The position numbers were made by a program, and so were the translations under genes. From an uncultured delta proteobacterium (GTDB taxonomy: Bacteria > Myxococcota > Myxococcia > Myxococcales > Anaeromyxobacteraceae), in contig CAWFDF010000011.1 in the NCBI GenBank assembly GCA_963814585.1, positions 228,002-292,001 on the forward strand: a stretch of 64,000 bases of DNA, in the 5' to 3' direction. A model generated the notes under the pieces. It had not been told where the DNA came from. It searched no databases and saw only the letters and a program-made list of their open reading frames with translations. Positions 48,932 to 64,000 of the stretch are shown here, in pieces; positions within the stretch are counted from its first letter, which is position 1; each line of letters begins with the position of its first letter.

Positions 48932-49946
48932 TGTCGCCGTCGTGGACCACGTACTCCTTGCCCTCGAGCCGGAGCTTCCCCTCCTGGCGCGCCTTCGCCT
49001 CGCTCCCGACGGCCATGAAGTCCTGGTAGTGCGTCACCTCGGCGCGGATGAACCCTCGCTCGAGGTCGGAGTGGATGCGCCCGGCGGCGCGCGGGGCCCG
49101 GTCGCCGCGTCGGATGGGCCAGGCCCGGACCTCGTCCTCTCCCACCGTGAAGAAGGAGACGAGGTCGAGCAGGTGGTAGGCGGCGCGGATGAAGCGCGCC
49201 CGGGCTGGCTCGGTGAGGCCGATCGAGGCGAGGAACTCGGGCTGGTCGGCCGGCGGGAGGTCGGCGATCTCGGCCTCGATGGTGGCGCACAGCGACAGCA
49301 CCTGGCAGCCGAGCTCGCTGGCGGCGGCGAGCACGCCGGAAGGAGCCGCGGCGGCGGCCTGGTCCTCGGCGACGTTCACGACGACCAGCAGCGGCCGGCG
49401 GGAGAGGAGGGCGAAGTGCGCCAGCTCCCGCTCCTCCGCGTCGCTCCACGTCATGGTGCGGAGCGGCCGGCCCGCGTCGAGGTGGGCGTGGAGCCGCTCG
49501 AGCTCGTGGTGCTCCGCCGAGCCCTGCTTGTGCTCCCGGGCCAGCCGCTCGAGCCGCTTCTCGACCAGGGAGAGATCGTGGAGGACGAGCTCCGCGTCGA
49601 AGTCGCGAAGCTCCCGCTCCGGGTCCCCCGGCGCGCCGTCGAACCCCGGAAAGCCACGCACCACCAGGCAGAAGGCGTCCACCTCGGCGAGCGCGCGCAG
49701 CGCCTCCTCGTCGAGGCCGGAGCCCTTCCTGGAGGGGCCGGGAACGTCCACGAACTGCATCTCGGCGTAGGTGGTCAGCTTGGGCTTGAAGATGGCGGAG
49801 AGAGCCTCGACGCGCGGGTCGGGGACCTTGATGGCACCCAGGTTCACCTGCGCCCGCCCGCCCGCGCCGTGCTTGTGCTGGCCGGTGAGCGCGTCGAAGA
49901 GGGTGGTCTTGCCCGACTGCGCGTAGCCCACGAGGCCGGCCTTCAT
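48906..49946 (-). CDS. ychF: Obg-family ATPase YchF
   Basis: FFTVGEDEVRAW, AGRIHSDLERGFIRAEV, RLEGKEYVVHDGDI. Confidence 0.93.
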   Translation of the reverse strand: MKAGLVGYAQSGKTTLFDALTGQHKHGAGGRAQVNLGAIKVPDPRVEALSAIFKPKLTTYAEMQFVDVPGPSRKGSGLDEEALRALAEVDAFCLVVRGFPGFDGAPGDPERELRDFDAELVLHDLSLVEKRLERLAREHKQGSAEHHELERLHAHLDAGRPLRTMTWSDAEERELAHFALLSRRPLLVVVNVAEDQAAAAAPSGVLAAASELGCQVLSLCATIEAEIADLPPADQPEFLASIGLTEPARARFIRAAYHLLDLVSFFTVGEDEVRAWPIRRGDRAPRAAGRIHSDLERGFIRAEVTHYQDFMAVGSEAKARQEGKLRLEGKEYVVHDGDIMNIRFAV

Positions 49947-50115
49947 GCGGGAGCCCTCCGCCCGCCCTCCACGCCCATCGGGCCGGCGCGTCGAACCTAG
50001 CATCATCGGACACCGGCCGCCCGGGTCCGTCAGGGGCGCCAGGCGCAGCCCTTCCTTCACCGCGGCCGCAGCTTCCCCGGTATCGTGCACCTGGCCGGAC
50101 GGCGACGGGAGAGCC

Positions 50116-51156
50116 ATGGAACGCACACCCCGCGGTGGCGGATGGGACCAGGCGCCGAGAGCGATCCGGCGCGGGCTCGCCGCCGTCCTGCTGGCGGGCC
50201 TCGTCGCCTGCGGGGGTGATTCACCCAAGGCGGACGGCAACCCGGCCGAGCGGTACCTCGACGACGTCCTCACCCTCGTCGAGCAGAACCTCCTCCACAG
50301 GAGCGGGATCGACTGGGTCGACTACCGCCGGCAGGTGCGCGCCGCAGCGGCCGGCGCCACGAGCGTGGCGGACCTCACGCCCGCGCTCCAGCTCGCGCTG
50401 GACCTGCTCGGGGACCGCCACAGCGGCATCTGCCGGGGCGACGGGAGCTGCCTGGCCCAGTCGGGCGTGCACGGCCTGGGCGGCTGGATCGGCTGGTCCG
50501 ATCCCGGCGTGCTGCCGCCCGGCATCGGCTACGTGCGGGTCGAAGGGAACTTCAGCTCGCCGCTATCGCGGAGGGAGCTGGCCGACCAGCTGCAGGCCGC
50601 CGTCCAGGCCCAGGATCGGGCGGGGCTGGTCGGCTGGGTCGTGGACCTGCGGGAGAACGGCGGCGGTGACATGTGGCCGATGCTGGCCGGCGTCGGACCC
50701 GTGCTCGGCGACGGGCCGGCCGGCTCGTTCGTCTTCCCGGAGGGGATGACCACACCGCGTGTCGCGCCGGGGGCCACCCAGACGTTCTCGTACTCCGGCG
50801 GGGCGGCGCTCGCCGATGGTCGGCCCCGGGTCAGCGTCACGACGCCCTACGCGCTCCGGGCGCCGGCCTCGCGCGTCGCCGTGCTGCAGGACGGCGGCAC
50901 GGGCTCGGCGGGCGAGGCGATCGCCATCGCCTTCATCGGGCGCCCCGGCGCCCGGAGCTTCGGCGCGGCGACCTACGGCCTGTCGAGCGCCAACGTGAGC
51001 TACTCGCTCCCGGACGGCGGCACCCTGATGCTGCTGGTCGGGCTGGGCCAGGACCGGAACGGGATCACCTACGGCGGGTCCATCACGCCGGACGAGCCGA
51101 CGGCCGGCCCCGCCGAGGCGGTCGCGGCGGCGGTCGCCTGGCTGGTCACCCCGTGA
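50116..51156 (+). CDS. S41 family peptidase lipoprotein
   Basis: Lipobox LVAC; VVDLRENGGG, TGSAGE, FGAATYG. Confidence 0.88.
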   Translation: MERTPRGGGWDQAPRAIRRGLAAVLLAGLVACGGDSPKADGNPAERYLDDVLTLVEQNLLHRSGIDWVDYRRQVRAAAAGATSVADLTPALQLALDLLGDRHSGICRGDGSCLAQSGVHGLGGWIGWSDPGVLPPGIGYVRVEGNFSSPLSRRELADQLQAAVQAQDRAGLVGWVVDLRENGGGDMWPMLAGVGPVLGDGPAGSFVFPEGMTTPRVAPGATQTFSYSGGAALADGRPRVSVTTPYALRAPASRVAVLQDGGTGSAGEAIAIAFIGRPGARSFGAATYGLSSANVSYSLPDGGTLMLLVGLGQDRNGITYGGSITPDEPTAGPAEAVAAAVAWLVTP

Positions 51157-51304
51157 GCACCTGACCGGTCCGGCCTGGCGGCCCGATGGTGGCCGGCTCC
51201 CCCTTCGGCGAGAGCTCGGCCTGCGGCCGGCCGCCCGTTGAGCCAGGCAACCGGACGAGCAGGAGCCCTCGCGACTCCGGAGGAGACGCGGAGGCCGCTC
51301 CTGG

Positions 51305-51346
51305 CGGGGCGACTGGACTTGAACCAGCGACCACGGGCACCCAGAC
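51305..51346 (-). repeat. tRNA-Pro 3'-half fragment (att-like) copy 1, diverged
   Basis: CGGGGCGACTGGACTTGAACCAGCGACCACGGGCACCCAGAC; reverse complement has T-arm GGTTCAAGTCC and the acceptor 3' strand. Confidence 0.8.
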
Positions 51347-51396
51347 GGCGTTCACTGATCGTGCAGAGGGGGCAAGGGCCGCCAGGCCTTGCGCCG

Positions 51397-51480
51397 AGGG
51401 CGACGGTCCACGAGTTCGTCGCCGAGGGGCGGCTGGCCCACGTGCGGATCGGGAACCCGATCCGGTTGCTGCCTGGTTCG
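51397..51480 (+). pseudogene. Excisionase-like HTH remnant 1 (N-terminus lost)
   Basis: RATVHEFVAEGRLAHVRIGNPIRL, close to the copy at 60796. Confidence 0.7.
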
Positions 51481-51678
51481 GTCACCCTGCGCCTCGAGTT
51501 CCGCGAGGAGGACCGCCGGCTCCACGATCCTGGGCCCCGCGTGGCCGTCGAGCGGAACTGGCCGAGGTGTCGGCGACGCCGACCGAGGCGTCACGGGCAC
51601 ATCGAAGCCGGCGGAGGGCGCGTCCAGGCCGATGTCACAGGGCGGGATGCGCTAGACTGAGCAGAGCAAGGGGGCGCC

Positions 51679-53172
51679 ATGAGCTCGAGATCGCGTCGCG
51701 GGTTCCTGCCGGTATTCGTTCTCGGGGTCGCGGTGCTGGCCTGCAGCGGTGGTGGATCCGGCGACTCGCCCTTCGCGATCACGGCGGTGCAACCGGGCGC
51801 CGGGACCACCCTCGGCGGAACGGCGGTCGTCGTGTCGGGCCGCGGCTTCGGCGCGGCCGCGACCGTGACGTTCGGTGGCGCGGCGGCGACGGACGTGGTC
51901 GTCGTGAGTGCGAGCGAGGTCCACTGCACGACCCCGCCGCACGCGAGCGGGTTCGTCGACGTCGTCGTCGCGAACTCGGCCACCGAGACCACGCTCAGCT
52001 CGGGCGCCTATCGGTTCGACGCCCCGCCGACGGCGGTCGCGGCGTGGGACCAGATCGTCACGCCCGGCGCCAGCGTCGCGCTCGACGGGAGCGCCAGCAC
52101 GGATCCAGACTCGTCTGGCGTGCTCACCTACGCGTGGTCGCTCGCCGCTCCCGCGGGGAGCGGAGCGACGCTCTCCGGCGGGACCACCGCCACGCCGTCG
52201 TTCGTCGCGGACGTCGCCGGGACCTACGTCGCGACGCTCGTCGTCGGCGACGGCACGAACGAGAGCGCGGCCTCCTCCGTCACCGTGAGGACGAGCGCGA
52301 CCGCGTCCCGGGTACCTGACACGGGGCTCGCGAAGTGCACGGGGGTGGGCGGTACCGCGCCCTGCCCGAGCGAGGGCGCGGCGTACTTCGGCCAGGACGC
52401 GAGCTACACCCTCCTCCCGCCGAGGCGGACGATCTCCACGGACACCGTCCAGGACGAGGTCACCGGGCTCACCTGGGAGCGGGCCGACGACGGCCAGTAC
52501 AACTGGTTCGAGGCCGCCGGTCGGTACGACGCGGTCTACAACGCCACCGGGACCGACGTCTGCGGGTCGCGCGTCCTCGGCGGGTTCTCCGATTGGCGGC
52601 TGCCGTCGGCGCACGAGCTCTACTCGATCCTCTCGTTCGGTCCTTCGGACGCCCCCCTCGACCAGAGCGCGTTCCCCGGGCTCGGCGGCGGACCGTACTG
52701 GACGTCGACGGAGCGCTGCACCGACCTGTACTGTCCCCCCGCTCAGATCTCATTCCCCATCACGACCTATGGGTACGGGCACCGCATGGACCCGATGTGG
52801 GTCGTGTGCGTGCGCGGCCCGGCGTGGGGCGTGAACACGTACGTTGACCAGGGGGACGGCACGGTGCGAGACGACGGGACGGGGCTCGTCTGGGAGCAAG
52901 CGCCTCCCGGCGTGGCGTCCAACTGGCGCAGCGCACTCGCCCGCTGCGAAGGGCTCGTGCTCGGCGGCCGGGACGACTGGCGCATGCCGAGCGCGAAGGA
53001 ACTTCAGACGATCGGGTTCCCGATGAACCTCGGACCGTTCCCCGGTACGCAGGCGGCGGACTACTGGACGTCGACGTCGATCGGCGGGTCCACGCTCGTC
53101 CTGGACTTCAGCGTGGACATGATGGACTCCGCGATCCCGGCGGCCTCGCTGTTCGTGCGTTGCGTGCGCTGA
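51679..53172 (+). CDS. Lipoprotein with IPT/TIG, PKD-like and two DUF1566-like domains
   Basis: Lipobox VLAC; GGTAVVVSGRGF; LDGSASTDPD; TVQDEVTGLTWE...DWRLPSAHEL and TVRDDGTGLVWE...DWRMPSAKEL. Confidence 0.85.
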   Translation: MSSRSRRGFLPVFVLGVAVLACSGGGSGDSPFAITAVQPGAGTTLGGTAVVVSGRGFGAAATVTFGGAAATDVVVVSASEVHCTTPPHASGFVDVVVANSATETTLSSGAYRFDAPPTAVAAWDQIVTPGASVALDGSASTDPDSSGVLTYAWSLAAPAGSGATLSGGTTATPSFVADVAGTYVATLVVGDGTNESAASSVTVRTSATASRVPDTGLAKCTGVGGTAPCPSEGAAYFGQDASYTLLPPRRTISTDTVQDEVTGLTWERADDGQYNWFEAAGRYDAVYNATGTDVCGSRVLGGFSDWRLPSAHELYSILSFGPSDAPLDQSAFPGLGGGPYWTSTERCTDLYCPPAQISFPITTYGYGHRMDPMWVVCVRGPAWGVNTYVDQGDGTVRDDGTGLVWEQAPPGVASNWRSALARCEGLVLGGRDDWRMPSAKELQTIGFPMNLGPFPGTQAADYWTSTSIGGSTLVLDFSVDMMDSAIPAASLFVRCVR

Positions 53173-53206
53173 CGGCCTCGCGAGTAGCGATAACAGGGGC
53201 TTTACG

Positions 53207-53250
53207 GTCGGAGCGACCGGGTCTGAACCAGCGACCATTTGCACCCCAAC
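53207..53250 (-). repeat. tRNA-Pro 3'-half fragment copy 2, diverged
   Basis: GTCGGAGCGACCGGGTCTGAACCAGCGACCATTTGCACCCCAAC. Confidence 0.8.
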
Positions 53251-53414
53251 TCCGCCAGCACGATCAGTCAAGCGATTCAGGATCTCGCAAGCCGCTGCAA
53301 TCCGGGCGGGTTCCGGGGGGAGCATCTTCCATGCCTTCGCCGGTTCCTGCACCGATTCGCCAATCGTCCAACGCACCGGTCATGCAGGCGGGCGGCGAAG
53401 TGGTCGGCGGTCCG

Positions 53415-53444
53415 CTGCTGACCGTCAGGGAGGTTGCGGAGCGC
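53415..53444 (+). pseudogene. Excisionase-like HTH remnant 2 (only LLTVREVAER left)
   Basis: Preceded by a leader homologous to 63256-63420; truncated at GGAGCG. Confidence 0.6.
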
Positions 53445-53696
53445 CGAGTGCAGGGGCAGGCCTGGGCCTTGGCCCGCGCCGCCTCACTGTCTGCCTCGTG
53501 GTGAACGCGGCGCCGAACCGCTTGCGCCCGCCCGCCGATAGCAGTATGGACGTACTGCCATCGAGGACGCGCAGCGCGCTCGCTGCACCTTCAGGCGCTG
53601 GGAGCAAAGAATGAACGCAGCACGGTTTCACACGACTGGCGGACCTGGCGTCCTCGTCCACGAGGACGACCCTGACCCGACCGGGAGGAAGGCGTC

Positions 53697-53912
53697 ATGA
53701 ACGGCAACGTGGCCCTCGTCACGGGCGCATCATCGGGCATCGGCGCAGCCATCGCAGGGCGGCTCGCCGAGGCTGGCTACACGGTCTTCGGCACCAGCAG
53801 GCGAGCGGTGTCCCCGGGACAACGATCGTTCGAGATGCTGACCCTCGACGGCGTCCGGCGGCGCGAAACGATGACCGCGACGAGCTGCGTGGACCTCGGG
53901 GCCGCGTCATGA
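53697..53912 (+). pseudogene. N-terminal fragment of an SDR oxidoreductase
   Basis: VALVTGASSGIG...VFGTSR, homology lost after about 50 aa. Confidence 0.75.
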
Positions 53913-54910
53913 AGGCATTCATCCTGGATCGCTACGGGAGCAAGGTCGCTCTCCGGGCCGGTGAGCTGCCAGACCCGGACGTCAGGGAGGACGAGATCCT
54001 CGTCCAGGTCCACGCAGCCGGGGTGAACCTCCTGGATTCGAAGATCCGGAGTGGCGAGTTCAAGCTGATCCTGCCCTACCGCGCACCGTTCGTCCTGGGT
54101 CACGACGTGGCCGGCGTCGTGGTCCGGGTCGGCGCACGCGTGAGGTACTTCAAGCCGGGTGACGAGGTCTACGCTCGACCGGCGGACCATCGCATCGGCA
54201 CCTTCGCCGAGCTCATCGCCGTCCAGGAGGAGGACGTGGCGCTGAAGCCGAAGATGCTCACGATGGAGGAGGCGGCCTCGCTTCCCCTGGTGGGCCTGAC
54301 GGCGTGGCAGGCGCTCGTCGAGAGAGGGCAGCTGAAGCGGGGCCACAAGGTCTTCATCCAGGCGGGCTCGGGCGGCGTGGGCACGTTCGCGATCCAGCTG
54401 GCAAGGCACCTGGGTGCCACGGTCGCGACCACGACCAGCACGTCGAACATCGAGCTGGTTCGCAGTCTCGGCGCGGACGTCATCGTGGACTACAAGAGGG
54501 AGGATTTCGAGAGCAAGCTGAGCGACTACGACCTGGTGTTGCACAGCCAGGACGGCAAGGCGCTCGTGAAGTCCTTGCGCGTGCTGCGAAAGGGCGGACG
54601 CCTCGTCTCGATCTCGGGTCCTCCTGATCCAGGCTTCGCCGACGAGATCGGCGCGCCATGGTTCGTGAAACTCGTCACCAGGCTGCTGAGCTTCGGCGCG
54701 AGGCGACGGGCAAGGAGCCTCGACACGGCATTCTCCTTTCTCTTCATGAAGGCGAGCGGCGACCAGCTGCGGAAGATCACGGCGCTCATCGATGCTGGAG
54801 CCGTCCGCCCGGTCGTCGACAAGGTCTTCCCGTTCCAGTCGACGAATGAGGCGCTGGCCTACGTGGAGACCGGACGAGCACGAGGCAAGGTCGTGATCAA
54901 GTTGAAGTAG
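53909..54910 (+). CDS. NADP-dependent oxidoreductase (MDR/quinone reductase-like)
   Basis: LGHDVAGVV, LPLVGLTAWQAL, AGSGGVG, GRARGKVVI. Confidence 0.93.
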   Translation: MKAFILDRYGSKVALRAGELPDPDVREDEILVQVHAAGVNLLDSKIRSGEFKLILPYRAPFVLGHDVAGVVVRVGARVRYFKPGDEVYARPADHRIGTFAELIAVQEEDVALKPKMLTMEEAASLPLVGLTAWQALVERGQLKRGHKVFIQAGSGGVGTFAIQLARHLGATVATTTSTSNIELVRSLGADVIVDYKREDFESKLSDYDLVLHSQDGKALVKSLRVLRKGGRLVSISGPPDPGFADEIGAPWFVKLVTRLLSFGARRRARSLDTAFSFLFMKASGDQLRKITALIDAGAVRPVVDKVFPFQSTNEALAYVETGRARGKVVIKLK

Positions 54911-54925
54911 GATGGATCTGCACCG

Positions 54926-55504
54926 ATGCGATACGCCCCGGAACACAACGAAGCGACCCGCGAACGGATCCTGGAGGCCGCAGCGCGCCTCTTTCGTGAG
55001 CACGGCATCGCCGCCGTTGGCCTCGCGAAGATCATGGCCGAGGCCGACCTGACCGTCGGCACGTTCTACACGCACTTCAGGTCGAAGGAGGCCCTGCTCC
55101 GGGAAGCCCTGCTCCGGTCGCTTCGCGATCGGCATGAGCAACTCGAGCAGTCGCTCCACGGCGCCGACGTGGAGCTGACGGTTCGCGCGTACCTGAGCCC
55201 GGATCACCGCGACGCTCCCGGGACGGGATGCCCCATCGCGGCCCTGGCGGCAGAGGTGGCGCGGCACCCCCGCGCGACGCGACACGCCTTCGCGTCCCAC
55301 AACGAGCCGACCCTCGACGCGCTCGCGGCCTGGCTGTCCTCACGGCGAGGCAGGGAGGTCGGCCGCGCGGACGCGGCGGCGCTCCTGGGGCTCCTCGCAG
55401 GGACGCTGCAGCTCGCACGCGCGACCCCCGACCGTGCTGAGTCCGACGCCATCCTCGAGGCCGGGATTCGCGCCGCGCTCCGGCTCGCGGGCGGAGACGC
55501 CTGA
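54926..55504 (+). CDS. TetR/AcrR family regulator
   Basis: RERILEAAARLFREHG...GTFYTHFRSKEAL; GCPIAAL. Confidence 0.93.
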   Translation: MRYAPEHNEATRERILEAAARLFREHGIAAVGLAKIMAEADLTVGTFYTHFRSKEALLREALLRSLRDRHEQLEQSLHGADVELTVRAYLSPDHRDAPGTGCPIAALAAEVARHPRATRHAFASHNEPTLDALAAWLSSRRGREVGRADAAALLGLLAGTLQLARATPDRAESDAILEAGIRAALRLAGGDA

Positions 55505-55507
55505 CCG

Positions 55508-55690
55508 GAGGCGGCCGAGCGGCTCGAGGTGTCCACCGCCTCCGTCTACGCCCTCTGCGAGTCAGGCATGCTGGCCTTCTTCCGGATTTCGACGCGCGCC
55601 ATCCGGATCGCTACAGGTGACCTCGAGACCTGCGTCCGGAGCGAGCGGACGGTCGGCGCAGCTACGGTGAGTGCCGCACCCAGTCGATGA
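55508..55690 (+). pseudogene. Excisionase-like HTH remnant 3 (no start codon)
   Basis: EAAERLEVSTASVYALCESGMLAFFRISTRAIRIATGDL, homologous to 63387..63587. Confidence 0.75.
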
Positions 55691-55799
55691 TGGCGGCCCG
55701 GAGCGCCGAGTGCAGGGTGAGGCCCTGTGCCTTGGCCCGCTTCTCCAGCAACTCCCAGACCAACTGCCGTCCGCATGCCCCGGCGAACTGAAGGTCAGC

Positions 55800-56243
55800 T
55801 CAGTTCCGCAAGACCACGGAAAGCGTCCTGGCCTCACCAGCGGCGAGCTGGAACTGCGACTCGCGCCACTTCGGCGCGGACAGGGCGTAGGTGCGGTTGT
55901 TGGACACGCCGTAGCCCTCCGAGGGCGCTCCCAGGAAGTCCCTGTTCAGCTTCCCGTCCCCGTTCTCGTCGTGGTGGACCGACACGGCATAGGTCCCCGG
56001 CGGTACGTTCGAGAAGACGCAGGAGGCTGCGCCGGAGCTGAGCGGCGTGGATTGGACCTGGAGCCCACCCGTCTCGGGGAAGCCCTGTTCGCTGGCGTAG
56101 AGGGCACACCGGAGGTTGCCGGCGCGGTTCTTGAGGTTGGAGACCTCGACGCGCACGGAGCCGTCGCCGTCGGCTCTCGCAGGCGCACCGGCTCCGAAGC
56201 CGAACAAGAGAGCCAGGGTCACCACGACGAGCGTTCGTGTCAT
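55800..56243 (-). CDS. DUF2141 family exported protein
   Basis: Signal peptide; PGTYAVSVHHDENGDGKL...PSEGYGVSNN. Confidence 0.88.
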   Translation of the reverse strand: MTRTLVVVTLALLFGFGAGAPARADGDGSVRVEVSNLKNRAGNLRCALYASEQGFPETGGLQVQSTPLSSGAASCVFSNVPPGTYAVSVHHDENGDGKLNRDFLGAPSEGYGVSNNRTYALSAPKWRESQFQLAAGEARTLSVVLRN

Positions 56244-56257
56244 GCAGGCCCGGGCCT

Positions 56258-57865
56258 TCAGGCGACGGAACGGGCTGTCGCCGCTGGAGTGGTTGCTGGC
56301 ACGAGTGGGTCGGGAAGGCGCTTCGCCGCGGCGATGACCTTTCGGAAGGTGGAGGGACCCTCCACCGCCGCCGCACACATCAGGCCTGACATGAGCGCGC
56401 CACCGATGCCGAGGATGAGCGCGTCGGCCCCGGCGAGGTAGAGCCCCGGCACCGGCGTCCGGGCTCGCAGCCACGTGAGAGCGAACCGCCCCGGCGTCGC
56501 CGGGAGGCCGTAGATCTCTCCCTCCGGGTGGTTCGTGAAGTGTGCGGTGGAGAGCGGCGTGGAGAGCTCGCGGTGGACCACCAAGCCGGAAAGTCCGGGA
56601 AGCCGCCGCTCGACCTGGGCCAGCATCCCCTCGGCGATTCGGTCCTTCAGCTCCAGGTACTCGTCGCCGCGCTTCATCCAGGAGGACCCCTCCCACCGCG
56701 CGAAGACGCTGGCATCCAGCGTAGCGACGATCTCCGCCGTGTGGGCGCGGGCCTGCGGATCCTTCAGGGAGGGAAAGCTCAGGTAGAGCTGTGGCGACCG
56801 GCCGGCCAGGATCTCACCGCTCCGGTCCCACATCCCGTCCTGGTCGAGCGAATCGTGAAGCCAGTAGTTCTCGCCCCTCACTCCCAGCGAGGCGGGTGAG
56901 CCCGAGAGACCCAGGTAGAGCGACACATGGGTCATGCTGCGGGGAATGCGCCGGAGCTGCGCGCGAAAGGGAATCTCCACCTCCTCCCCGAGCAGGCGGA
57001 GGAAGGTAGCGCGCGCCCCGGCGTCAGAGACCACCACCGGCGCCCTCAGGGTCTCGCCGCCAGCCAGGCCGACGCCCACGGCGCGGCCGCCCTCGACCAG
57101 GATCCTTTCCACCTCGGCGCGAACCCGTACGGTGCCACCGGTACTCTCGATGACACGGCAGGCTCCCTCGGCGATGCTTCGGGAGGTACCCGACGGGTAG
57201 TAGCCGCCCTCCAGGTAGTGGCTGGTGATGACGGCGTGTGCGAGGAAGGCGCTCCTCGCCGGGGGCAGGCCATAGTCGCCCCATCGGGCGCCGAGAACCG
57301 CGCGAAGCCGTTGATCCCGAACGTGCTCCTCGAGCCAGGAGCCGGTCGTCCGCAGAGCGAGCGCGCCCCGTGCCGCCATGAGGGCGCCGGCGATGGCGGC
57401 CACCGGGGCCGGCGCGGCCGAGCGCATGGCAAGAACCTTCACCCAGGAGGCCGCCCGGTCCACGTCGGCGAAGAAGCGGTCGATGGCCCGGCGCTCGCCT
57501 GGGAAGGCGTCCTGGAGGTCGGAGCGGAAGTTCTCCTGGCCGGCGCGGATACCGAACTCGAGGCCGGGGAAGACGAGCCGGTCGTACGTCTCGGGCATCG
57601 GGGACCAGCGGACCTCCCCGCCGGTCGCGACCTGCATGGCCTTTCGCATCATGCCGGGCGTGCCCATCTCGCCGACGTAGTGGACCCCGACGTCCCACTC
57701 GAACCCGCCGCGGCGCGTGAAGGTGTGGGTGAAGCCGCCGGCCCGGTAGTGGCGTTCCAGCACCACGACCTTCCGGCCGTGGAGGCGGGCCAACAGCGCC
57801 GCGGCAGCGAGGCCGCCCATGCCCGATCCGATCACGATGACGTCGGCGTCGTGTCTGGTACTCAT
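56258..57865 (-). CDS. Phytoene dehydrogenase/retinol saturase-like FAD oxidoreductase
   Basis: VIGSGMGGL, GGFTHTF...DVGVHY, LSFPSLKDP, STPLS, GLYLAGAD. Confidence 0.9.
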   Translation of the reverse strand: MSTRHDADVIVIGSGMGGLAAAALLARLHGRKVVVLERHYRAGGFTHTFTRRGGFEWDVGVHYVGEMGTPGMMRKAMQVATGGEVRWSPMPETYDRLVFPGLEFGIRAGQENFRSDLQDAFPGERRAIDRFFADVDRAASWVKVLAMRSAAPAPVAAIAGALMAARGALALRTTGSWLEEHVRDQRLRAVLGARWGDYGLPPARSAFLAHAVITSHYLEGGYYPSGTSRSIAEGACRVIESTGGTVRVRAEVERILVEGGRAVGVGLAGGETLRAPVVVSDAGARATFLRLLGEEVEIPFRAQLRRIPRSMTHVSLYLGLSGSPASLGVRGENYWLHDSLDQDGMWDRSGEILAGRSPQLYLSFPSLKDPQARAHTAEIVATLDASVFARWEGSSWMKRGDEYLELKDRIAEGMLAQVERRLPGLSGLVVHRELSTPLSTAHFTNHPEGEIYGLPATPGRFALTWLRARTPVPGLYLAGADALILGIGGALMSGLMCAAAVEGPSTFRKVIAAAKRLPDPLVPATTPAATARSVA

Positions 57866-58072
57866 CGCAGGGCCCGTCTTGAGGAGTGCGTCGCACCGGA
57901 AGCATACCTGTCGCCACCGCTCTCCGGTGAACCGTCTGGCCGCCGAGCACCGGACTGACATGACGCCGCCGGTCCACGGATCAACCACTCCGAGCCGCCG
58001 GGCCTGTCACCGCCGCCAATACTGCCGCCGGTTGCTGCCACTCTTCTGCCGGGGTCCAGGGCCTCAAGAAGT

Positions 58073-58117
58073 GAAGGCCCTGACGCAACCCGGTTTCCCG
58101 AGGGAGTCAGGGCCTTC
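58073..58117 (-). terminator. Hairpin immediately 3' of tRNA fragment 3
   Basis: GAAGGCCCTGAC...GTCAGGGCCTTC 12-bp inverted repeat. Confidence 0.65.
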
Positions 58118-58122
58118 GAACT

Positions 58123-58166
58123 GTCGGGGCGACTGGACTTGAACCAGCGACCACTTGCACCCCAAG
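58123..58166 (-). repeat. tRNA-Pro(GGG) 3'-half fragment copy 3
   Basis: Reverse complement CTTGGGGTGCAAGTGGTCGCTGGTTCAAGTCCAGTCGCCCCGAC = anticodon loop to acceptor end; no D-arm or 5' half. Confidence 0.88.
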
Positions 58167-58349
58167 TCGCCATCCACGGACAGTCAACTATCACGGCCGC
58201 TCTCGATGGGGTGGAACCTGTCGAGGGAGGAGAGTGGTCACCTCTCGACGGTCCGAACCAGGGGCCTCGGCATCGATCCCATTGGCTTCCCGCCTCGCCA
58301 GCCGCGCGGGGCCCCGGGGCTTCGAGCCATCGAGGGTGCCTGGGAGGGC

Positions 58350-58482
58350 GACCTGCTCACCGTACGCTCCGTGGCGGGGCTCTTCGGGCTCTCAACCTCG
58401 ACCGTCTTCCGGCACTGCGAGGACGGCCAGATTCCTCGCGTCGGGCTCTCAAGCGCCATCCGCGTCGCGCCAGATGCCTTCG
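58350..58482 (+). pseudogene. Excisionase-like HTH remnant 4
   Basis: DLLTVRSVAGLFGLSTSTVFRHCEDGQIPRVGLSSAIRV. Confidence 0.7.
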
Positions 58483-58759
58483 ACCACCGCGGCCAGGGAG
58501 GTCGGCACGGGAGACCAGGGCATCACCGCGGCCCGGGGCACTCGCTTCCTGGTGCCAACTCGCGGGTCGTCCGCGCGCCGTTAGGCCGCCGCCTCGCGAT
58601 CATCGGTCGCCGGCTTCCGCAAGCACCCACCATCCCGCAAGGCCAGGAAGCCGACCGCAGGCTGCGCAGCGACCAGGGCAGCTGCGGCGAGAACGGGCGC
58701 GAGGCGCGGGCGCGACCGGGGGCATCCTGCCGAGCCGGTCCCCGAGGGCGCCCACTTGA

Positions 58760-58870
58760 CCCATTGCCGAGTGAGGTCGAGAGCCCAGGAGGAGTGGACG
58801 GCCGCAAGGATGCCGACGGCCAGCGCCGCGATGACGGCCGTCAGCACCCATTCCGGCATGCCCAGAGCCG
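58760..58870 (-). pseudogene. Membrane-helix fragment resembling the N-terminus of TolB/TPR-type proteins
   Basis: LGMPEWVLTAVIAALAVGILAAVHSSWALDLT with no intact context. Confidence 0.35.
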
Positions 58871-58963
58871 TGCTGCCGGAGGCACTGCCCTGAGGCCCGG
58901 ACGGCAGAGCCCGGGTCACCTCCACGCTGCGACGCCCGCCTCCGCGGACCGCTCGAGCCGACC

Positions 58964-59302
58964 CTAGCCGCCGCCACTCGCGCCGGCCTTCGGGAGCGCC
59001 TCGATCCGCGTCGCCTTTCCGGTCGCGTCGTACGTGGCGCGAACGGTGGCGCCCTCGGGCAGCCGCTCGACCATGACGAACCGGCCCTCCACCACGATCT
59101 GCGTCGCGGGATCGACCAGGAGCCGCAGGCGCTCGGCGCTCTCCTGCCGCTTCAGGACGACCCCGTCGTACCTGGCGCTCACCACCTCACCGGTCGCCGT
59201 GCCTGCCTGGGTCGGCGTCGTGGCGCCCGGGTCGCTCTTGCATCCGCCGACCATCAACGCGAGCGCGGCCACGACCGGTGCCATCAATCGCGAGAGTTTC
59301 AT
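58964..59302 (-). CDS. Small lipoprotein (OB-fold-like)
   Basis: AAGGAGG RBS; lipobox-like VGGC; LPEGATVRATY. Confidence 0.75.
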   Translation of the reverse strand: MKLSRLMAPVVAALALMVGGCKSDPGATTPTQAGTATGEVVSARYDGVVLKRQESAERLRLLVDPATQIVVEGRFVMVERLPEGATVRATYDATGKATRIEALPKAGASGGG

Positions 59303-59818
59303 GTGCGCCTCCTTAACTTGGATGTCAAACTGAATACCGATCCGCGTGGGTCTTGTCAACCGCCGCACGAGGCGTGGCGGCCGCAGGAGCTCTTCAGGGC
59401 ATTGGCGGCTTGGCTCCCGAATCCCGCACGGGACCGGCAGCGCCCGTCCGGGGCTGGAAGGCCACTTAACCTTCTGGATCTGGAGGAAGGGCGCTCGTCG
59501 GGCGGCGACCGGTCTGGGGCGCCCCGCTTCCGAGAGGCCTGCGCTTCGGAGGTCGCCGGCGTCCCCGCCGGCCGGGCTGCTCGCCAGGGCACCGGTGGCA
59601 CGGGCGTCGCGAGTCCGTTCGGCGTACGTGTCATTGCATATCAAAGTACTATACGCCGTAGAGACGCGACGGGAGTGCCACGAGGCGCGTTGACCGAGCG
59701 CACCGAGCCGGGCACCGGGCGGCGCGGACGAGCTTCGCCCTCGATGCCCGCTCGCGTCTGGTGGCCGGGGCGGGTATACAGAACTGCTGCCGCGCGAGCA
59801 CACGGGGGAGGGGCGAAG

Positions 59819-60307
59819 ATGCAGTCGGTGTCGACCAGAGTCCACCTCGCGGAGCCCGGGTCGGAGGGGCCGATGCGCCGCCCGCTCGGACCGGTCCTGT
59901 CGTTCATGCGGTCCCTTTGGGGCGTCAATCACGCTCTCGAGTCCACGTCCCGGGGGATGAAGGCGCGGATCGGCGTCACCGGCCCGGAGCGGATGGTGGT
60001 CCGGCTCGTCGGGCGGTACCCGGGCATTTCCGCCGGGGAGCTCGCCAGCATCCTGCAGGTGCATCCGAGCACGCTCACGGGCCTGCTCAAGCGGCTCGCG
60101 CGACGCGGCCTCCTCGTGAGGCGCGCGGATGCGTCGGATGGTCGTCGGGCGCTGTTCATCCTCACGGCGAAGGGCGAAGCGGTGGACAAGGTGCGGCGCG
60201 GAACGGTCGAGGCGGCGGTGACGGGGGCGCTCATGTCGCTGTCGATCCGAGACGTCCGGGTGACGGCCTCGGTCCTGGATGCGCTCGCGCGAGCGTTGGG
60301 GCGGTGA
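59819..60307 (+). CDS. MarR family regulator
   Basis: GISAGELASILQVHPSTLTGLLKRL...DGRRALFILTAKG. Confidence 0.92.
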   Translation: MQSVSTRVHLAEPGSEGPMRRPLGPVLSFMRSLWGVNHALESTSRGMKARIGVTGPERMVVRLVGRYPGISAGELASILQVHPSTLTGLLKRLARRGLLVRRADASDGRRALFILTAKGEAVDKVRRGTVEAAVTGALMSLSIRDVRVTASVLDALARALGR

Positions 60308-60399
60308 ACCCGGAGCTTCCGCGTGGGCGGCAGACCGTGCCCCCCACTCCGCCACGGGGCGGGCGGCATCTCCAGCGTCTACGGGGCGGCACGGGCCTC

Positions 60400-60594
60400 T
60401 CACCCACACCCCTCGCACTTCACTGGGTCGCCAGGAGGAGTTCCGGGGTCGGGCCTCGCTGATCCCGCGGGGACGGCCTTCGAGGCAGCTTCCTCGTTCG
60501 GGCCCGTCACCTTCGTCGTCACCTGTACCGCCCCGGACAAGAAGAGAGCCCCTGTTACCTGCGGCGAAACCGCAACGATACCAAGGGCTGTGAT
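60400..60594. repeat. Conserved cassette end (copy A) with hairpin at 60547-60589
   Basis: Colinear with 63012-63211. Confidence 0.8.
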
Positions 60595-60638
60595 GTCGGG
60601 ACGACTGGATTTGAACCAGCGACCACTTGCACCCCAAC
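60595..60638 (-). repeat. tRNA-Pro(GGG) 3'-half fragment copy 4
   Basis: GTCGGGACGACTGGATTTGAACCAGCGACCACTTGCACCCCAAC. Confidence 0.88.
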
Positions 60639-60795
60639 GGCGTTCACGGAGCGTGTAGGTGGTGGTCAGGGGTCGCAAGACCTCGCAACGACTCGCGATG
60701 GCCAGGATGGGGAGCCCCCACTTTCGCCATCGTTCGCCGGACTTCGCGGAACTCTTGCTGCTGGTTTGCTGCTGGCACTCGGGACTCAGGGTCGC

Positions 60796-60972
60796 ATGCT
60801 CACGGTGGCCGAGGCGGCGCGGCGGCTCAGGGTATCGAGGGCGACGGTCTACAAACTCGTCGGCGAGGGGCGGCTGGCGCACGTGCGCATCGGGAACCAG
60901 ATTCTCCTCCTGACAGGGGCCATCGGCCTCGGCCAGGGACCGGGCTGGCGCGGGAAGGGGAGGCCAGAGTAG
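60796..60972 (+). CDS. Excisionase-family HTH protein 5
   Basis: MLTVAEAARRLRVSRATVYKLVGEGRLAHVRIGNQI. Confidence 0.78.
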   Translation: MLTVAEAARRLRVSRATVYKLVGEGRLAHVRIGNQILLLTGAIGLGQGPGWRGKGRPE

Positions 60973-61002
60973 GATAGGGACAAACGTAACACGGAGCCCG
61001 CC

Positions 61003-61266
61003 ATGGCAAAGACCGTCGAGACCTACCGGACCACCAAGGCCCTGCGCGAGCTGGTGCGCCGCGCCGCCAAGGTGGTCGACAAGCGACCCTCAGAGTTCCT
61101 GAGGCAAGCCGCCGAGGAGAAGGCACTGGCGGTCCTCCGCGAGGCGGCGGGCGACAACCTGCGCAGGATGCTGGCGCGCCTGCCTGCGGGCCGCGCCGGG
61201 TCCGAGGCCGAGGCCGAGCGGTTGGGCGAGGAGGCGGCCAAGGCAGCGAGGAAGGGCGGCGCGTGA
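61003..61266 (+). CDS. Probable ribbon-helix-helix antitoxin
   Basis: ELVRRAAKVVDKRPSEFLRQAAEEKA; GTGA overlap with the PIN gene. Confidence 0.7.
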   Translation: MAKTVETYRTTKALRELVRRAAKVVDKRPSEFLRQAAEEKALAVLREAAGDNLRRMLARLPAGRAGSEAEAERLGEEAAKAARKGGA

Positions 61267-61688
61267 GGATCGTCATCGACTCCTCGGTGGTCGTGGCCGC
61301 CCTGACCACACCCAATCCGGAGTCCGCGTCCCGCGTGGTGCTCGCTGCTGTGGCGGCCGGCGCGGTGGAGCTGGTCATCACTGACGAACTCGAGGCCGAG
61401 TACCGACGCGCCGTTGAATTCCCTCAGGTCAGGCGCTATGCCGCCAAGGTGGACCGCCAAGCGTTCGTCGGCGCCATCGTGGCGACAGCCGAGCGAGTGG
61501 AGGCTGGCTCAGCAGTCGGCTCGGTTCCCGCCGACCCGGGAGACGACAAGGTGGTGGCGGCGGCCCTGACGGGGAGGGCAGCCTTCCTGGTGACCCTGGA
61601 CCATCACCTACTCGAGCTCGGCGGGCTGACCGGCGTGTTGTTCCTGAAGCCAGGCGACCTCTTGCGAGTGTTGCGGGCGCAGCACTGA
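61263..61688 (+). CDS. PIN-family toxin of a toxin-antitoxin system
   Basis: RIVIDSSVVVAAL, DPGDDKVVAAAL, FLVTLDHHLL. Confidence 0.9.
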   Translation: MRIVIDSSVVVAALTTPNPESASRVVLAAVAAGAVELVITDELEAEYRRAVEFPQVRRYAAKVDRQAFVGAIVATAERVEAGSAVGSVPADPGDDKVVAAALTGRAAFLVTLDHHLLELGGLTGVLFLKPGDLLRVLRAQH

Positions 61689-61751
61689 GCAGCCTCGCTA
61701 CTTCCGCTCCGGAGTCGGTTCCGTGGAGCCAGCAGAGCCAGGCAGCAGCGC

Positions 61752-61850
61752 CTGCTCACGGTGGCCGAGGCGGCGCGGCGGCTTCAGGTGTCGAGGGCGA
61801 CGGTCTACAAACTCGTCGCCGAGGGGCGGCTGGCGCACGTGCGGGTTGGA
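61752..61850 (+). pseudogene. Excisionase-like HTH remnant 6
   Basis: LLTVAEAARRLQVSRATVYKLVAEGRLAHVRVG, near-identical DNA to 60797-60890. Confidence 0.78.
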
Positions 61851-61950
61851 ACCAGATACGGTTCCTTCCGGCCTCGATCCATTCCGCACGAAGGTAACCT
61901 CCGCGTATACCTTTGTGCGTGGCCCGCTCGCGCCCCAGGGGCCGGGACCG

Positions 61951-62322
61951 TCAGCCTCGGACTGGTCCGCCCGGCCCTGGGGTGATTCGGGCCTGCCCGG
62001 GCTGCAGCACCGTGAAGCTGGCGCGAAGGGCCTCGCCGTGCTTGGCGACGAGGTCCAGTACCGAAGGCCCAAGGGTTCGCCGCGCGTTGCCGGGGAAGCG
62101 GACGAGGATGACGCCATCGCTGCCGGACCCTGCAACGAAGGCGAGCCAGCCGAAGTCCTTGTCCTCGGTGAGGAGGATTCGGCCCTCACGCCTGGCCAAG
62201 GCGATGACCTCGGCGTCCACGGTCCGAGTCGTCTCCTCGGCGAGCGCACGAACGTCGTGGCCGGCGGAGCGAAGGCTGCGGACTACGGCGAAGTCGACGT
62301 TCTCGTCGGCCAGGAAGCGCAC
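61951..62322 (-). CDS. DUF5615-type PIN-like toxin
   Basis: RFLADENV, GHDV, EGRILLTEDKDFG. Confidence 0.9.
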   Translation of the reverse strand: MRFLADENVDFAVVRSLRSAGHDVRALAEETTRTVDAEVIALARREGRILLTEDKDFGWLAFVAGSGSDGVILVRFPGNARRTLGPSVLDLVAKHGEALRASFTVLQPGQARITPGPGGPVRG

Positions 62323-62331
62323 AGCCGACTG

Positions 62332-62562
62332 CTATCCCGCCTGCGGGAGCACGATAACGTCATGCGCGACCGAGTCGGCGGCGTAGCGCAGCACGGCCTG
62401 GATGTCGTCGTGCGTGAGGCGAGGGTAAGCGTCTACCAGATCAGCCTCCGTCGCTCCCTCGGACAGCTTGCGCAGGATGCCCTCGACCGGAATGCGGGTG
62501 CCACGCACGACCGGCTTGCCCTGAAGGACGGCGGGATTGAGCTCGATGCGGTCGGTCGTCAT
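62332..62562 (-). CDS. DUF433 antitoxin
   Basis: NPAVLQGKPVVRGTRIPV...YPRLTHDDIQAVLRYA. Confidence 0.92.
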   Translation of the reverse strand: MTTDRIELNPAVLQGKPVVRGTRIPVEGILRKLSEGATEADLVDAYPRLTHDDIQAVLRYAADSVAHDVIVLPQAG

Positions 62563-63011
62563 GGCGAAGGCTCCGCAAGAATCGTAGCACCCGGGACGCC
62601 CTTGGGCGAGCCCTCCCAACCGAAGCTTCTGGGCAGGCGGCGTGAGGTCCGTTCCGCGAGCCGCCCCCTTCCGCCAGGCCAACCAGCAACCTGGGACTCC
62701 GACGGTGCAGGTGAACCGGAGCCAGTCCATGTCCTTTCCAATCGTCGCCGCGAGGGCCAGCAGCTCCGTCTCCTCGGGTGGGGGCTCGGCCGCCACCACG
62801 CGGAGGAGCGCCGTCAGCGCGCCCGGCGGCGGGGCCTGCTGCGCACCGGGGTCGGAATCGCCAGCGTCCCCCACGCGGACCTCCAGATGAACGGTCCAAG
62901 GCGAGCTCATTCGAGTAGCAGGTGAGCGCCTGATGATCTGGCCTGCCTTGGGAGTGGGCCCGCCACGGGTCCAGCGTCATCTCCAGCTGCGACAGGGCGG
63001 GATGGACATCT

Positions 63012-63211
63012 CGCCCACTCCCCTCGCACTTCACGGGGTCGCCAGGCCGAGCTCCGGGTCGGGCTTCGCTGCTCCCGCGGGGACGGCCTTCGAGGCTTCG
63101 CGGCAGATTCCTCGTTCGGACCCGTTACCTGCGCCACTACCCGTGCTGCCCCGGACAAGAAGGAGCCCCTGTTGCCCGCGGCGAAACCGCAACGATAACA
63201 GGGGCTTTGAT
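63012..63211. repeat. Conserved cassette end (copy B) with hairpin at 63164-63206
   Basis: AGCCCCTGTT...AACAGGGGCT outer stem with inner GCGG-CGAAA-CCGC; colinear with 60400-60594. Confidence 0.8.
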
Positions 63212-63255
63212 GTCGGGGCGACTGAATTTGAACCAGCGACTACTTGCACCCCAAG
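63212..63255 (-). repeat. tRNA-Pro(GGG) 3'-half fragment copy 5
   Basis: GTCGGGGCGACTGAATTTGAACCAGCGACTACTTGCACCCCAAG. Confidence 0.88.
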
Positions 63256-63386
63256 TCCGCCCGCACGATAAGTCAAGCGATGCAGGAGTTCGCAACGATT
63301 CGCAATCAGACGGGTTCCCGCGCGAAGCATCTTCCATGCCTTCGCCGAGTTCAGCCGAGTTGCGGTGGTCGTCCAATGCACCGGTA

Positions 63387-63587
63387 ATGCAAGGGAAGGT
63401 CACCGTGGGTGTGGATTCCCTGCTCACCGTGAAGGAGGCAGCCGAGCGGCTCAAGGTGTCAACCGCCACCGTCTACGCGCTCTGTGCCTCGGTGCGGCTG
63501 GCGTACCTGCGGATCTCGACGCACGCCATCAGGATCGCTGGCGGGGACCTGCGGTGTTTCGTGCGGAGCTGCCTTGGCCACCGTTGA
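63387..63587 (+). CDS. Excisionase-family HTH protein 7
   Basis: LLTVKEAAERLKVSTATVYALCASVRLAYLRISTHAIRIAGGDL. Confidence 0.8.
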   Translation: MQGKVTVGVDSLLTVKEAAERLKVSTATVYALCASVRLAYLRISTHAIRIAGGDLRCFVRSCLGHR

Positions 63588-63668
63588 GCCACTGAGGGCG
63601 GCAGCCGTCCGGCGGTGGCAGCGCACATGGAGGCGACCTGTAGCGGCAGGCGGGCTACACTGGGCGCC

Positions 63669-64000
63669 ATGGCCGAGGCCCCCTACAGGGTGAGCGACCC
63701 GACGCTGGCGGAGTTGCTCCGCCGGCTCGTCCCGGCCTACAGGCCGGAGAGGGTGTACCTCTTCGGTTCCCGGGCGCGCGGCGAGGCCGGGCCGGACAGC
63801 GACTACGACCTCCTGCTCGTCGTGCCGGACGACGCTTCGGCCGATCGCCGGCGCTCCCGGCTCGCGTACGAAGTGCTGCGTGGGACGGGCGTCGCGGCCG
63901 ACGTCCTGGTCTGCACCCGGAGCTGGTTCGACCGTCGCGAGGGGCTCAAGGCCTCGCTCCCTGGCACCGTCCTCCGCGAAGGGCGCCTCCTCCATGCCGC
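63669..64000 (+). CDS. Minimal nucleotidyltransferase (MNT), probable MNT-HEPN antitoxin; runs off window end
   Basis: RVYLFGSRARGEAGPDSDYDLLLVV (GS-x10-DxD); absent from the ORF track because the stop lies outside the window. Confidence 0.88.
   Translation, partial: MAEAPYRVSDPTLAELLRRLVPAYRPERVYLFGSRARGEAGPDSDYDLLLVVPDDASADRRRSRLAYEVLRGTGVAADVLVCTRSWFDRREGLKASLPGTVLREGRLLHA

What the first reader, a model, noticed from the sequence alone, without database searches (positions are those of the whole stretch)
51347..63587. Seven excisionase-like copies fall into three families, each paired with its own leader
Seen: family I (RATVxxxVxEGRLAHVR at 51397, 60796, 61752) follows a leader beginning GGCGTTCAC after fragments 1 and 4. 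Family II (STAxVYALC...RISTxAIRI at 55508 and 63387, plus the stub at 53415) follows the TCCGCC.GCACGAT.AGTCAAGCGAT...GCATCTTCCATGCCTTCGCC leader after fragments 2 and 5. Family III (58350) has a third leader. Leaders contain short direct repeats: TTGCTGCTGG twice at about 60746-60766, and GCACCG repeats in family II. Inference: several related element lineages share one tRNA target, each cassette brings its own directionality factor and arm sites, and xis decay may lock older cassettes in place.
Basis: partly seen in the sequence, partly recalled or inferred. Interest (0 to 1): 0.72.

Follow-up and report, generated by a model that had tools for sequence, protein, structure and literature searches.

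The report
Integrase tails left at tRNA-Pro site
The seven 'excisionase' copies are the cut-off back ends of integrase genes that split themselves when mobile elements inserted one after another at the same tRNA gene; they point to a widespread myxobacterial integrase design whose extra DNA-binding domain is attached only in the unsplit gene and whose job is untested.

Summary
Seven Xis-fold (HTH_17-like) copies and five 3' fragments of tRNA-Pro(GGG) are real, and leader type tracks HTH type in relatives. Only five copies follow a leader; most are decayed. They are not free excisionase genes. Related integrases read without a stop into the att core (22 of 27). Core+leader+HTH is one stop-free frame (32 of 34), in the frame used by the integrase lineage that shares its arm motif. 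Intact elements have a separate Xis-like gene before int (17 of 27). Natural single-ORF Int-linker-HTH proteins are common (46 of 150 hits), and phage Mx9 Int is one. So attP lies inside int, and integration severs a C-terminal Xis-like domain. The window is a decayed tandem array of such elements with toxin-antitoxin cargo; the only family integrase in the assembly is an IS21-type-broken pseudogene beside the tRNA on contig C2. attP-in-int (Mx8/Mx9) and accretion are known; I found no description of the severed HTH domain, but the primary papers were unavailable. Its role, probably favouring integration, is inferred. The scan earlier noted attP-in-int on other DNA (e1-3897113), without this domain.

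The parts
51302..51342 (-). tRNA-Pro(GGG) 3' fragment 1 (att core; outermost, 37/41 identical)
51347..51492 (+). 5' remnant of leader I joined by a deletion to the 3' part of an HTH I domain (first helix lost)
51679..53172 (+). cargo: TIG/PKD/Lcl_C domain protein
53207..53249 (-). tRNA-Pro 3' fragment 2 (37/43 identical)
53250..53443 (+). leader II (integrase linker, NAPVMQ arm word) and HTH II stub, in frame with the core
53437..53480 (-). 3' remnant of an antitoxin-like gene (partner of BrnT in relatives; 'BrnA' label recalled) fused to the stub
53697..55504 (+). cargo: SDR fragment, zinc-type alcohol dehydrogenase, TetR regulator
55508..55690 (+). orphan HTH II, 5'-truncated, no core or leader
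55660..55760 (-). 3' remnant of the same antitoxin-like gene (86-90% to relatives)
55800..57865 (-). cargo: DUF2141 protein and flavin (amino-oxidase family) oxidoreductase
58001..58121 (+). tail of a type I integrase gene (arm repeats, hairpin); rest of int lost
   Evidence: (81% to L100/L044)
58122..58166 (-). tRNA-Pro 3' fragment 3 (44/45)
58167..58500 (+). leader III and divergent HTH III, out of frame with the two open core frames
58964..60307 (.). cargo: small protein with no Pfam match (-) and MarR regulator (+)
60349..60593 (+). int-side tail of a third type (shared with 62960-63210), ends in a hairpin
60594..60637 (-). tRNA-Pro 3' fragment 4 (43/44)
60638..60972 (+). leader I (arm repeats TTGCTGCTGG at 60755, 60766) and HTH I: stop-free from the core in the FEPAT frame
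61003..61688 (+). TacA-like antitoxin and PIN toxin pair
61752..61860 (+). orphan HTH I, no core or leader, similarity ends near residue 36
61951..62562 (-). DUF433 / DUF5615 (PIN-like) pair, 93% to L037
62960..63210 (+). int-side tail of the third type, hairpin
63211..63255 (-). tRNA-Pro 3' fragment 5 (43/45)
63256..63587 (+). leader II and complete HTH II: stop-free from the core in the DLNQ frame
63669..64000 (+). minimal nucleotidyltransferase (followed by HEPN in relative L050), at the contig end

Best explanation
The stretch is the outer part of a decayed tandem array of small integrative elements at tRNA-Pro(GGG). Their tyrosine integrase gene runs across its own attP: N-terminal arm-binding, core-binding and catalytic domains, then a ~105-145 aa unstructured linker that encodes arm site-core-arm site, then a C-terminal Xis-fold winged HTH (HTH_17). 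Integration cuts the gene (shown by anatomy). The catalytic part stays beside the restored tRNA and ends inside the antisense tRNA, often 28 codons on; linker+HTH is left at the far att end. Each new arrival pushes older ends outward, and deletions removed the int bodies and two cores, leaving five cores and seven HTHs with TA and metabolic cargo. Inferred, not shown (about 50%): the HTH works only while fused. It binds or bends attP arm DNA so that the long Int made from the circle integrates efficiently, while the short chromosomal Int lacks it and needs the separate upstream Xis to excise. The split would thus be a built-in directionality switch. The confidence given is for the identity; the role is less sure.
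For: (a) Integrases read stop-free through the core in 22 of 27 sites; core-to-HTH is stop-free in 32 of 34, at 188 nt (FEPAT frame) or 192-198 nt (DLNQ frame) in most. (b) Frames match by lineage: all 11 int tails with the NAPVMQ-like arm word use DLNQ, as do 9 of 12 such leaders; 4 int tails with FAAxLLLG use FEPAT, as do 10 of 12 such leaders. (c) 33 of 33 linkers have no stop in the HTH frame, versus 28 of 66 other sense frames, 34 of 99 antisense frames and 23% of shuffles; HTH dN/dS 0.22-0.24. (d) Natural one-ORF fusions: P0003 holds integrase, this core, leader II and HTH II; also P0011 and P0104; 46 of 150 representative hits, 33 of them >=480 aa, median 35% identical. The same arm word flanks the core in 18 of 43 fusions versus 11 of 860 shuffles. 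(e) Phage Mx9 Int has tRNA-Gly homology at nt 1395-1428 and HTH_17 at aa 489-537 after it. (f) AlphaFold model of P0011: folded integrase, linker pLDDT <50 (407-425, 428-503), folded wHTH 505-553. (g) A separate HTH gene precedes int in 17 of 27 integrase hits. (h) Searching by the HTH alone across the phylum, 25 of the 30 best loci have a tRNA fragment upstream, 24 of 25 open through it. (i) SD word before only 1 of 33 HTHs versus 89 of 174 called genes.
Against: The linker's amino acids are nearly unconstrained (dN/dS 0.88-0.94), so its fixed length may reflect att geometry. An in-frame ATG/GTG/TTG lies within 15 codons in 31 of 33 cases (ATG in 21), so separate translation is possible. Frame is not fixed per arm word: L040 versus L175 and P0053 versus L174 differ. 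The query held both domains, so 46 of 150 shows existence, not frequency. Some fusions may be tandem junctions, not circles. No excised circle, transcript or protein was seen. The C2-C11 join is inferred, with an unassembled gap. Mx9 shows no upstream Xis-like gene by HMM or Pfam. Sequences are related, so counts overstate independence.
Confidence: 0.82

Rival explanations
1. One reading: each HTH is a free-standing excisionase made from the att end with its own start codon; the open frame from int is incidental.
For: HTH_17/TIGR01764 match (18 of 19 members); best PDB hit 4j2n Gp37, E 1.9e-5 (recalled as Pukovnik Xis); a possible start in 31 of 33; linker dN/dS near 1.
Against: Separate Xis-like gene already present; lineage-matched frames, 46 one-ORF fusions and Mx9 Int; SD 1 of 33.
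Confidence: 0.1
2. Dual use: the HTH is fused to Int in the circle and is also made alone from the start codon inside the second arm repeat once integrated, acting as a helper or inhibitor of recombination. This adds to the best explanation and does not exclude it.
For: An in-frame NTG sits 7-14 codons upstream, inside the arm word, in most lineages; HTH under purifying selection.
Against: The NTG is explained by arm-site DNA conservation; almost no SD; the HTH faces inward from a hairpin and core, and no promoter was identified (not scanned).
Confidence: 0.25
3. The fused HTH is a transcriptional autoregulator (BldC/MerR-like) that binds the xis-int promoter and shuts off int expression from the circle, not a recombination architect.
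For: Weak BldC-family matches in 9 of 19 members; Mx8 Int manages with a tail that has no HTH_17, and P0031/P0032/P0036 carry other tails.
Against: The domain lies right after the attP arm and co-varies with it; covalent tethering to the recombinase suits action at attP.
Confidence: 0.2
4. The intervals are live integrase-less cassettes (an integron-like array) excised in trans by an integrase elsewhere.
For: Small int-less intervals with one att end and HTH recur in relatives (L042, L070); modules are shared at 81-93% between genomes; cis-mobilisation of CIMEs is known (PMC5704250 passages).
Against: Cores 1 and 2 are degenerate; left and right ends of the intervals share no arm word above background; the only family integrase in the assembly is broken.
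Confidence: 0.07

Closest known systems
Myxococcus phage Mx9 integrase (AAP78666; Julien 2003, primary paper not held)
   Same: Best phage match to the family integrase (38.8% over aa 208-406); tRNA homology inside int followed by a C-terminal HTH_17; a review states its integration follows a principle similar to Mx8's (PMC6070905 passages).
   Different: Mx9 carries the 5' part of tRNA-Gly, only ~13 codons before the HTH; here the 3' half of tRNA-Pro lies ~60 codons before it. Mx9 is a phage with no detectable upstream xis; these are small elements (Replic_Relax gene in L057) with one. The HTH domain is not mentioned in the Mx9 texts I could read.
Myxococcus phage Mx8 int/attP/uoi (Tojo 1996; Magrini 1999; Tojo and Komano 2003: titles and review passages only)
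   Same: attP within int; integration gives a new 3' end and changes activity; a separate HTH_17 gene (uoi, annotated excisionase) directly upstream of int. [quoted passage not shown]
   Different: The Mx8 Int tail has no HTH_17; its target is another tRNA (tRNA-Asp, recalled).
SSV1/pT26-2 'suicidal' archaeal integrases (PMC7253208 passages)
   Same: att site inside the integrase ORF; tandem integration can rebuild intact or hybrid genes; the att site is read in different frames in different lineages.
   Different: There the split inactivates the enzyme and tandems were not observed. Here the catalytic part stays whole, only an accessory wHTH is cut off, and tandems are common.
Site-specific accretion and CIMEs (PMC5704250 passages); Islander tDNA islands (PMC4383910 passages)
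   Same: Tandems of decayed, integrase-less elements bounded by tRNA fragments.
   Different: Five fragments plus two core-less ends is a long array (Islander lists 4 tandems of >=3, counting only members with an integrase); interval ends are chimeric, not matched attL/attR pairs.
Xis-type winged-HTH directionality factors (HTH_17 / TIGR01764; PDB 4j2n Gp37)
   Same: Sequence family and predicted fold.
   Different: Encoded as the C-terminal domain of Int, not as its own gene; function untested.

Membership tests
Mx8/Mx9-type integrase with attP inside int | Tyrosine integrase ORF reads through the att core | tested here: met
   22 of 27 related integrases; 64 of 112 homologous proteins contain the antisense-tRNA peptide in the DLNQ or FEPAT frame
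Mx8/Mx9-type integrase with attP inside int | A 3' coding continuation lies beyond the core at the other att end, in the integrase frame | tested here: met
   natural fusions; in the window met at fragments 4, 5 and (stub) 2, not at 3
Mx8/Mx9-type integrase with attP inside int | Long and short forms differ in recombination activity | not testable with these tools
   needs recombination assays
Free-standing excisionase (Xis/RDF) | HTH_17/TIGR01764 winged HTH | tested here: met
   3 of 7 copies over the Pfam cut-off, 6 of 7 at E<=0.1; 18 of 19 family members match TIGR01764
Free-standing excisionase (Xis/RDF) | Own gene with own translation start | tested here: inconclusive
   SD 1 of 33 versus 89 of 174; an NTG in 31 of 33; in frame with int
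Free-standing excisionase (Xis/RDF) | Binds att arm and stimulates excision | not testable with these tools
   needs EMSA and excision assay
tRNA-targeted genomic island (Islander definition) | tRNA plus displaced 3' fragment in the same orientation | tested here: inconclusive
   five co-oriented fragments at the end of C11, intact tRNA on C2; the join is inferred, not assembled
tRNA-targeted genomic island (Islander definition) | Each member has its own integrase | tested here: not met
   no integrase in the window array; only a broken one on C2
CIME (cis-mobilizable element) | Lost integration genes | tested here: met
CIME (cis-mobilizable element) | Retains its own matched attL and attR | tested here: not met
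   no shared arm word across any window interval above background; a type I tail faces a type II leader in the interval between cores 3 and 2

The most novel reading that the evidence does not exclude
Myxococcota carry a large family of tyrosine integrases, including the cloning-tool integrase of Mx9, with a covalently attached Xis-fold domain that works opposite to Xis: it builds the integrative complex on attP and is amputated by the very reaction it promotes. Because lineages read the core in different frames, a tandem junction rebuilds a full Int-HTH gene only between frame-compatible neighbours. In-frame junctions would be unstable and mismatched or broken ones would persist, which would explain long mixed-family arrays like this one. 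In none of 5 chromosomal junctions with both parts (L037, L039, L045, L106, L133) is an intact fusion rebuilt.
Probability: 0.35. Interest if true: 0.78.

Novelty: new variant of a known kind. Interest (0 to 1): 0.6.

Why it matters
It corrects a likely misannotation: some small 'excisionase' ORFs beside tRNA fragments in myxobacterial genomes are integrase 3' ends, and fused forms get named 'excisionase family DNA binding protein'. It gives a concrete candidate for an old question, how the C-terminal segment that Mx8/Mx9-type integrases lose on integration controls directionality. The test is cheap: one domain deletion in existing Mx9 integration plasmids. At least 33 diverse full-length fusions with different tRNA targets are also candidate integration tools for myxobacteria. 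The window's own array is decayed and, taken alone, ordinary.

Tried and rejected
ARAGORN and Rfam found no tRNA or RNA family in the window; the fragments were identified by BLAST to the genome's own tRNA. No assembled overlap joins C11 to C2, and the HEPN partner, an upstream xis, Replic_Relax and BrnT were not found in the assembly (91.7% complete). Viral-contig scan for the core: 0 matches. Phage tblastn with the core+leader+HTH frame: no match. Single-sequence PDB search: none. The repeated motif at 53437/55699, first suspected to be a second recombination site, is an antitoxin gene remnant. Orphan HTH breakpoints differ between genomes, so a site-specific break at the HTH start was not supported. 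Sequencing runs: no RNA holder listed; best share 0.29. Laying four metagenome contig sets gave no excision joint between cores among the joints shown (11 more not shown); one contig joins 55510 to 61754 (47 nt side), too weak to use. Four primary Mx8/Mx9 papers were not held; no supplements were read, and they could mention the domain.
Full report
Setting. The window is the last 64 kb of contig C11 of G000. It holds no intact tRNA, but five co-oriented 41-45 nt antisense copies of the 3' half of tRNA-Pro(GGG); the intact gene is on contig C2 at 7252-7326. On C2 the tRNA is followed by a convergent integrase pseudogene, broken by an insertion whose two ORFs look like IS21 istA/istB (label from recall), frameshifted and without its N-terminus. 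No overlap joins the contigs, so the join is inferred. Records matching the core in the genome collection are often titled Anaeromyxobacter, Anaeromyxobacteraceae or other Myxococcota. The core pattern matched 80 of 92 genomes of the family, often more than once.

Observation. All seven HTH-like copies exist. Pfam HTH_17 passes its cut-off for 3 of 7 and matches at E<=0.1 for 6 of 7. Five follow a tRNA fragment and a leader; 55508 and 61752 do not. Only 63420 is full length and in frame. 60796 is in frame but diverges towards its end, 51397 lacks its first helix, and 58353 is out of frame. 53415 is a stub fused by deletion to the tail of an antitoxin-like gene that lies beside BrnT in relatives. 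Between the fragments lie metabolic cargo and toxin-antitoxin pairs, several shared with other genomes of the genus at 81-93%.

Relatives. I fetched 44 stretches around cores and added loci. After removing duplicates there were 208 core sites: 129 tRNAs and 79 fragments. 34 fragments have the HTH downstream, and 27 sites have an integrase tail upstream.

The key result. The integrase does not stop before the att core. In 22 of 27 sites it reads through it, either as ...SGRLDLNQRPLAPQ or as ...GATGFEPATTCTP, and beside the tRNA it often ends 28 codons later. At the other end, core-leader-HTH is stop-free in 32 of 34 cases, mostly at 188 nt in the FEPAT frame or 192-198 nt in the DLNQ frame. Lineages match. 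All 11 integrase tails with the NAPVMQ-like word use DLNQ, as do 9 of 12 leaders with that word. Four tails with FAAxLLLG use FEPAT, as do 10 of 12 such leaders; one further tail of that type (L028) is frameshifted. These words are direct repeats present on both sides of the core, as arm sites would be (inference). Counter-cases exist: L040 versus L175, and P0053 versus L174. Beyond the core, 33 of 33 linkers lack stops in the HTH frame, against 28 of 66 other sense frames, 34 of 99 antisense frames and 23% of shuffles. The linker's amino acids are nearly neutral (dN/dS 0.94 and 0.88; 10 and 8 equal-length members) while the HTH is conserved (0.22, 0.24).

Natural unsplit genes. P0003 is one ORF with integrase, this core, leader II and HTH II. 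P0011 and P0104 are similar, 3 of 112 integrase homologs in all. A search of 50%-identity representatives with P0104 gave 46 of 150 hits with integrase and C-terminal HTH, 33 of them >=480 aa, median identity 35%; the query held both domains, so this shows existence, not frequency. In 43 fusions (41 of the 46, five left out, four of them with short linkers, plus P0011 and P0003) the same word flanks the core in 18, versus 11 of 860 shuffles. Searching 201 phylum genomes with the HTH alone matched 83. Of the 30 best loci (including G000's own and several seen before), 25 have a tRNA fragment upstream (Pro, Gly, Arg, Met, Leu, Ala, Asn), 24 of them open through it, and L254 is a 548-aa fusion. 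The best phage match to the integrase is Mx9 Int, which has tRNA-Gly homology at nt 1395-1428 and HTH_17 at aa 489-537. The AlphaFold model of P0011 (mean pLDDT 82) shows an integrase with an N-terminal three-strand domain, a disordered linker and a folded winged HTH; Foldseek's best hits are Tn1549 and lambda integrases.

The real xis is elsewhere. In 17 of 27 integrase hits a separate small HTH gene lies directly upstream of int; the other ten are truncated, at locus edges, or Mx9. This mirrors Mx8 uoi. The att-end HTHs have an SD-like word in 1 of 33 cases versus 89 of 174 called genes, though 31 of 33 have a possible start codon nearby.

State of this array. No intact family integrase or upstream xis is in the assembly. 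The int sides of the cores keep only short tails ending in hairpins, and no interval has matching arm words at its two ends. The array is best read as at least seven insertions fused by deletions; the two outer cores are the most decayed.

Mechanism. Shown by anatomy: integration splits int after the catalytic domain and strands a Xis-fold domain at the far att end. Inferred: the domain acts when fused, binding attP arm DNA and favouring integration, so the reaction removes its own helper. Rivals are a free Xis, dual use, an autoregulator, and live cassettes; see those fields.

Literature. Passages seen: PMC6070905 (Mx8 attP inside int, new 3' end with changed specificity; similar principle for Mx9), PMC4383910 (Mx8 and SSV integrases extend across attP; 4 tandems of >=3), PMC7253208 (hybrid integrases, att read in different frames), PMC5704250 (accretion, CIMEs), PMC11610982 (passages and reference titles). 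PMC10281127 was read in part 1 of 2, which holds the whole announcement text and has no mention of an HTH or excisionase domain. Search listings only; none pointed to a description of a C-terminal HTH_17 cut off by integration. The four primary Mx8/Mx9 papers were not held and no supplements were read, so novelty is provisional.

Verdict. Observation partly confirmed, interpretation partly supported. A new variant of a known kind: an Mx8/Mx9-type self-splitting integrase with a severed Xis-like domain, seen here as debris in a decayed tandem array. Interest 0.6.

Noticed in passing
G000:C12:3144-3512 and 29566-29640; G000:C8:697675-698050 (L072-L074): A second array of the same kind at tRNA-Pro(CGG): two fragments, each with leader and in-frame HTH, no integrase found; C8 ends in an int-side-like hairpin.
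   Followed up: partly
window 61003-64000 and loci L036, L037, L039, L042, L046, L050, L057, L070: Many different toxin-antitoxin pairs (TacA-like/PIN, DUF433/DUF5615, BrnT pair, MNT/HEPN, Fic, ParE, AbiEi/AbiEii) pile up near the HTH end of these elements.
   Followed up: partly
P0031, P0032, P0036: Integrases of this family that read through the core and a repeated arm word into a short tail with no HTH match, recalling the Mx8 tail.
   Followed up: no
L057:9584-11466; L033:2-1245; L032:18263-18999: Type II elements carry a small core: unknown ORF, Replic_Relax gene, upstream HTH, int; no phage genes seen.
   Followed up: partly
window about 19560-19945 (- strand): Another tyrosine-recombinase match (PF00589, E 5.5e-8) whose similarity appears spread over two frames, next to a primase-like stretch; unrelated to this array.
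   Followed up: no
L037 (G087:C65): The contig is a perfect inverted duplicate of itself, probably an assembly artefact; counted once.
   Followed up: no
window 49945-51156: The S41 peptidase outside fragment 1 has a short 70% match inside a relative's island (L041), so the array may once have extended further left.
   Followed up: no
L034-L035 (G083:C8): A further tRNA-Pro fragment with an HTH in the opposite orientation on the int side.
   Followed up: no
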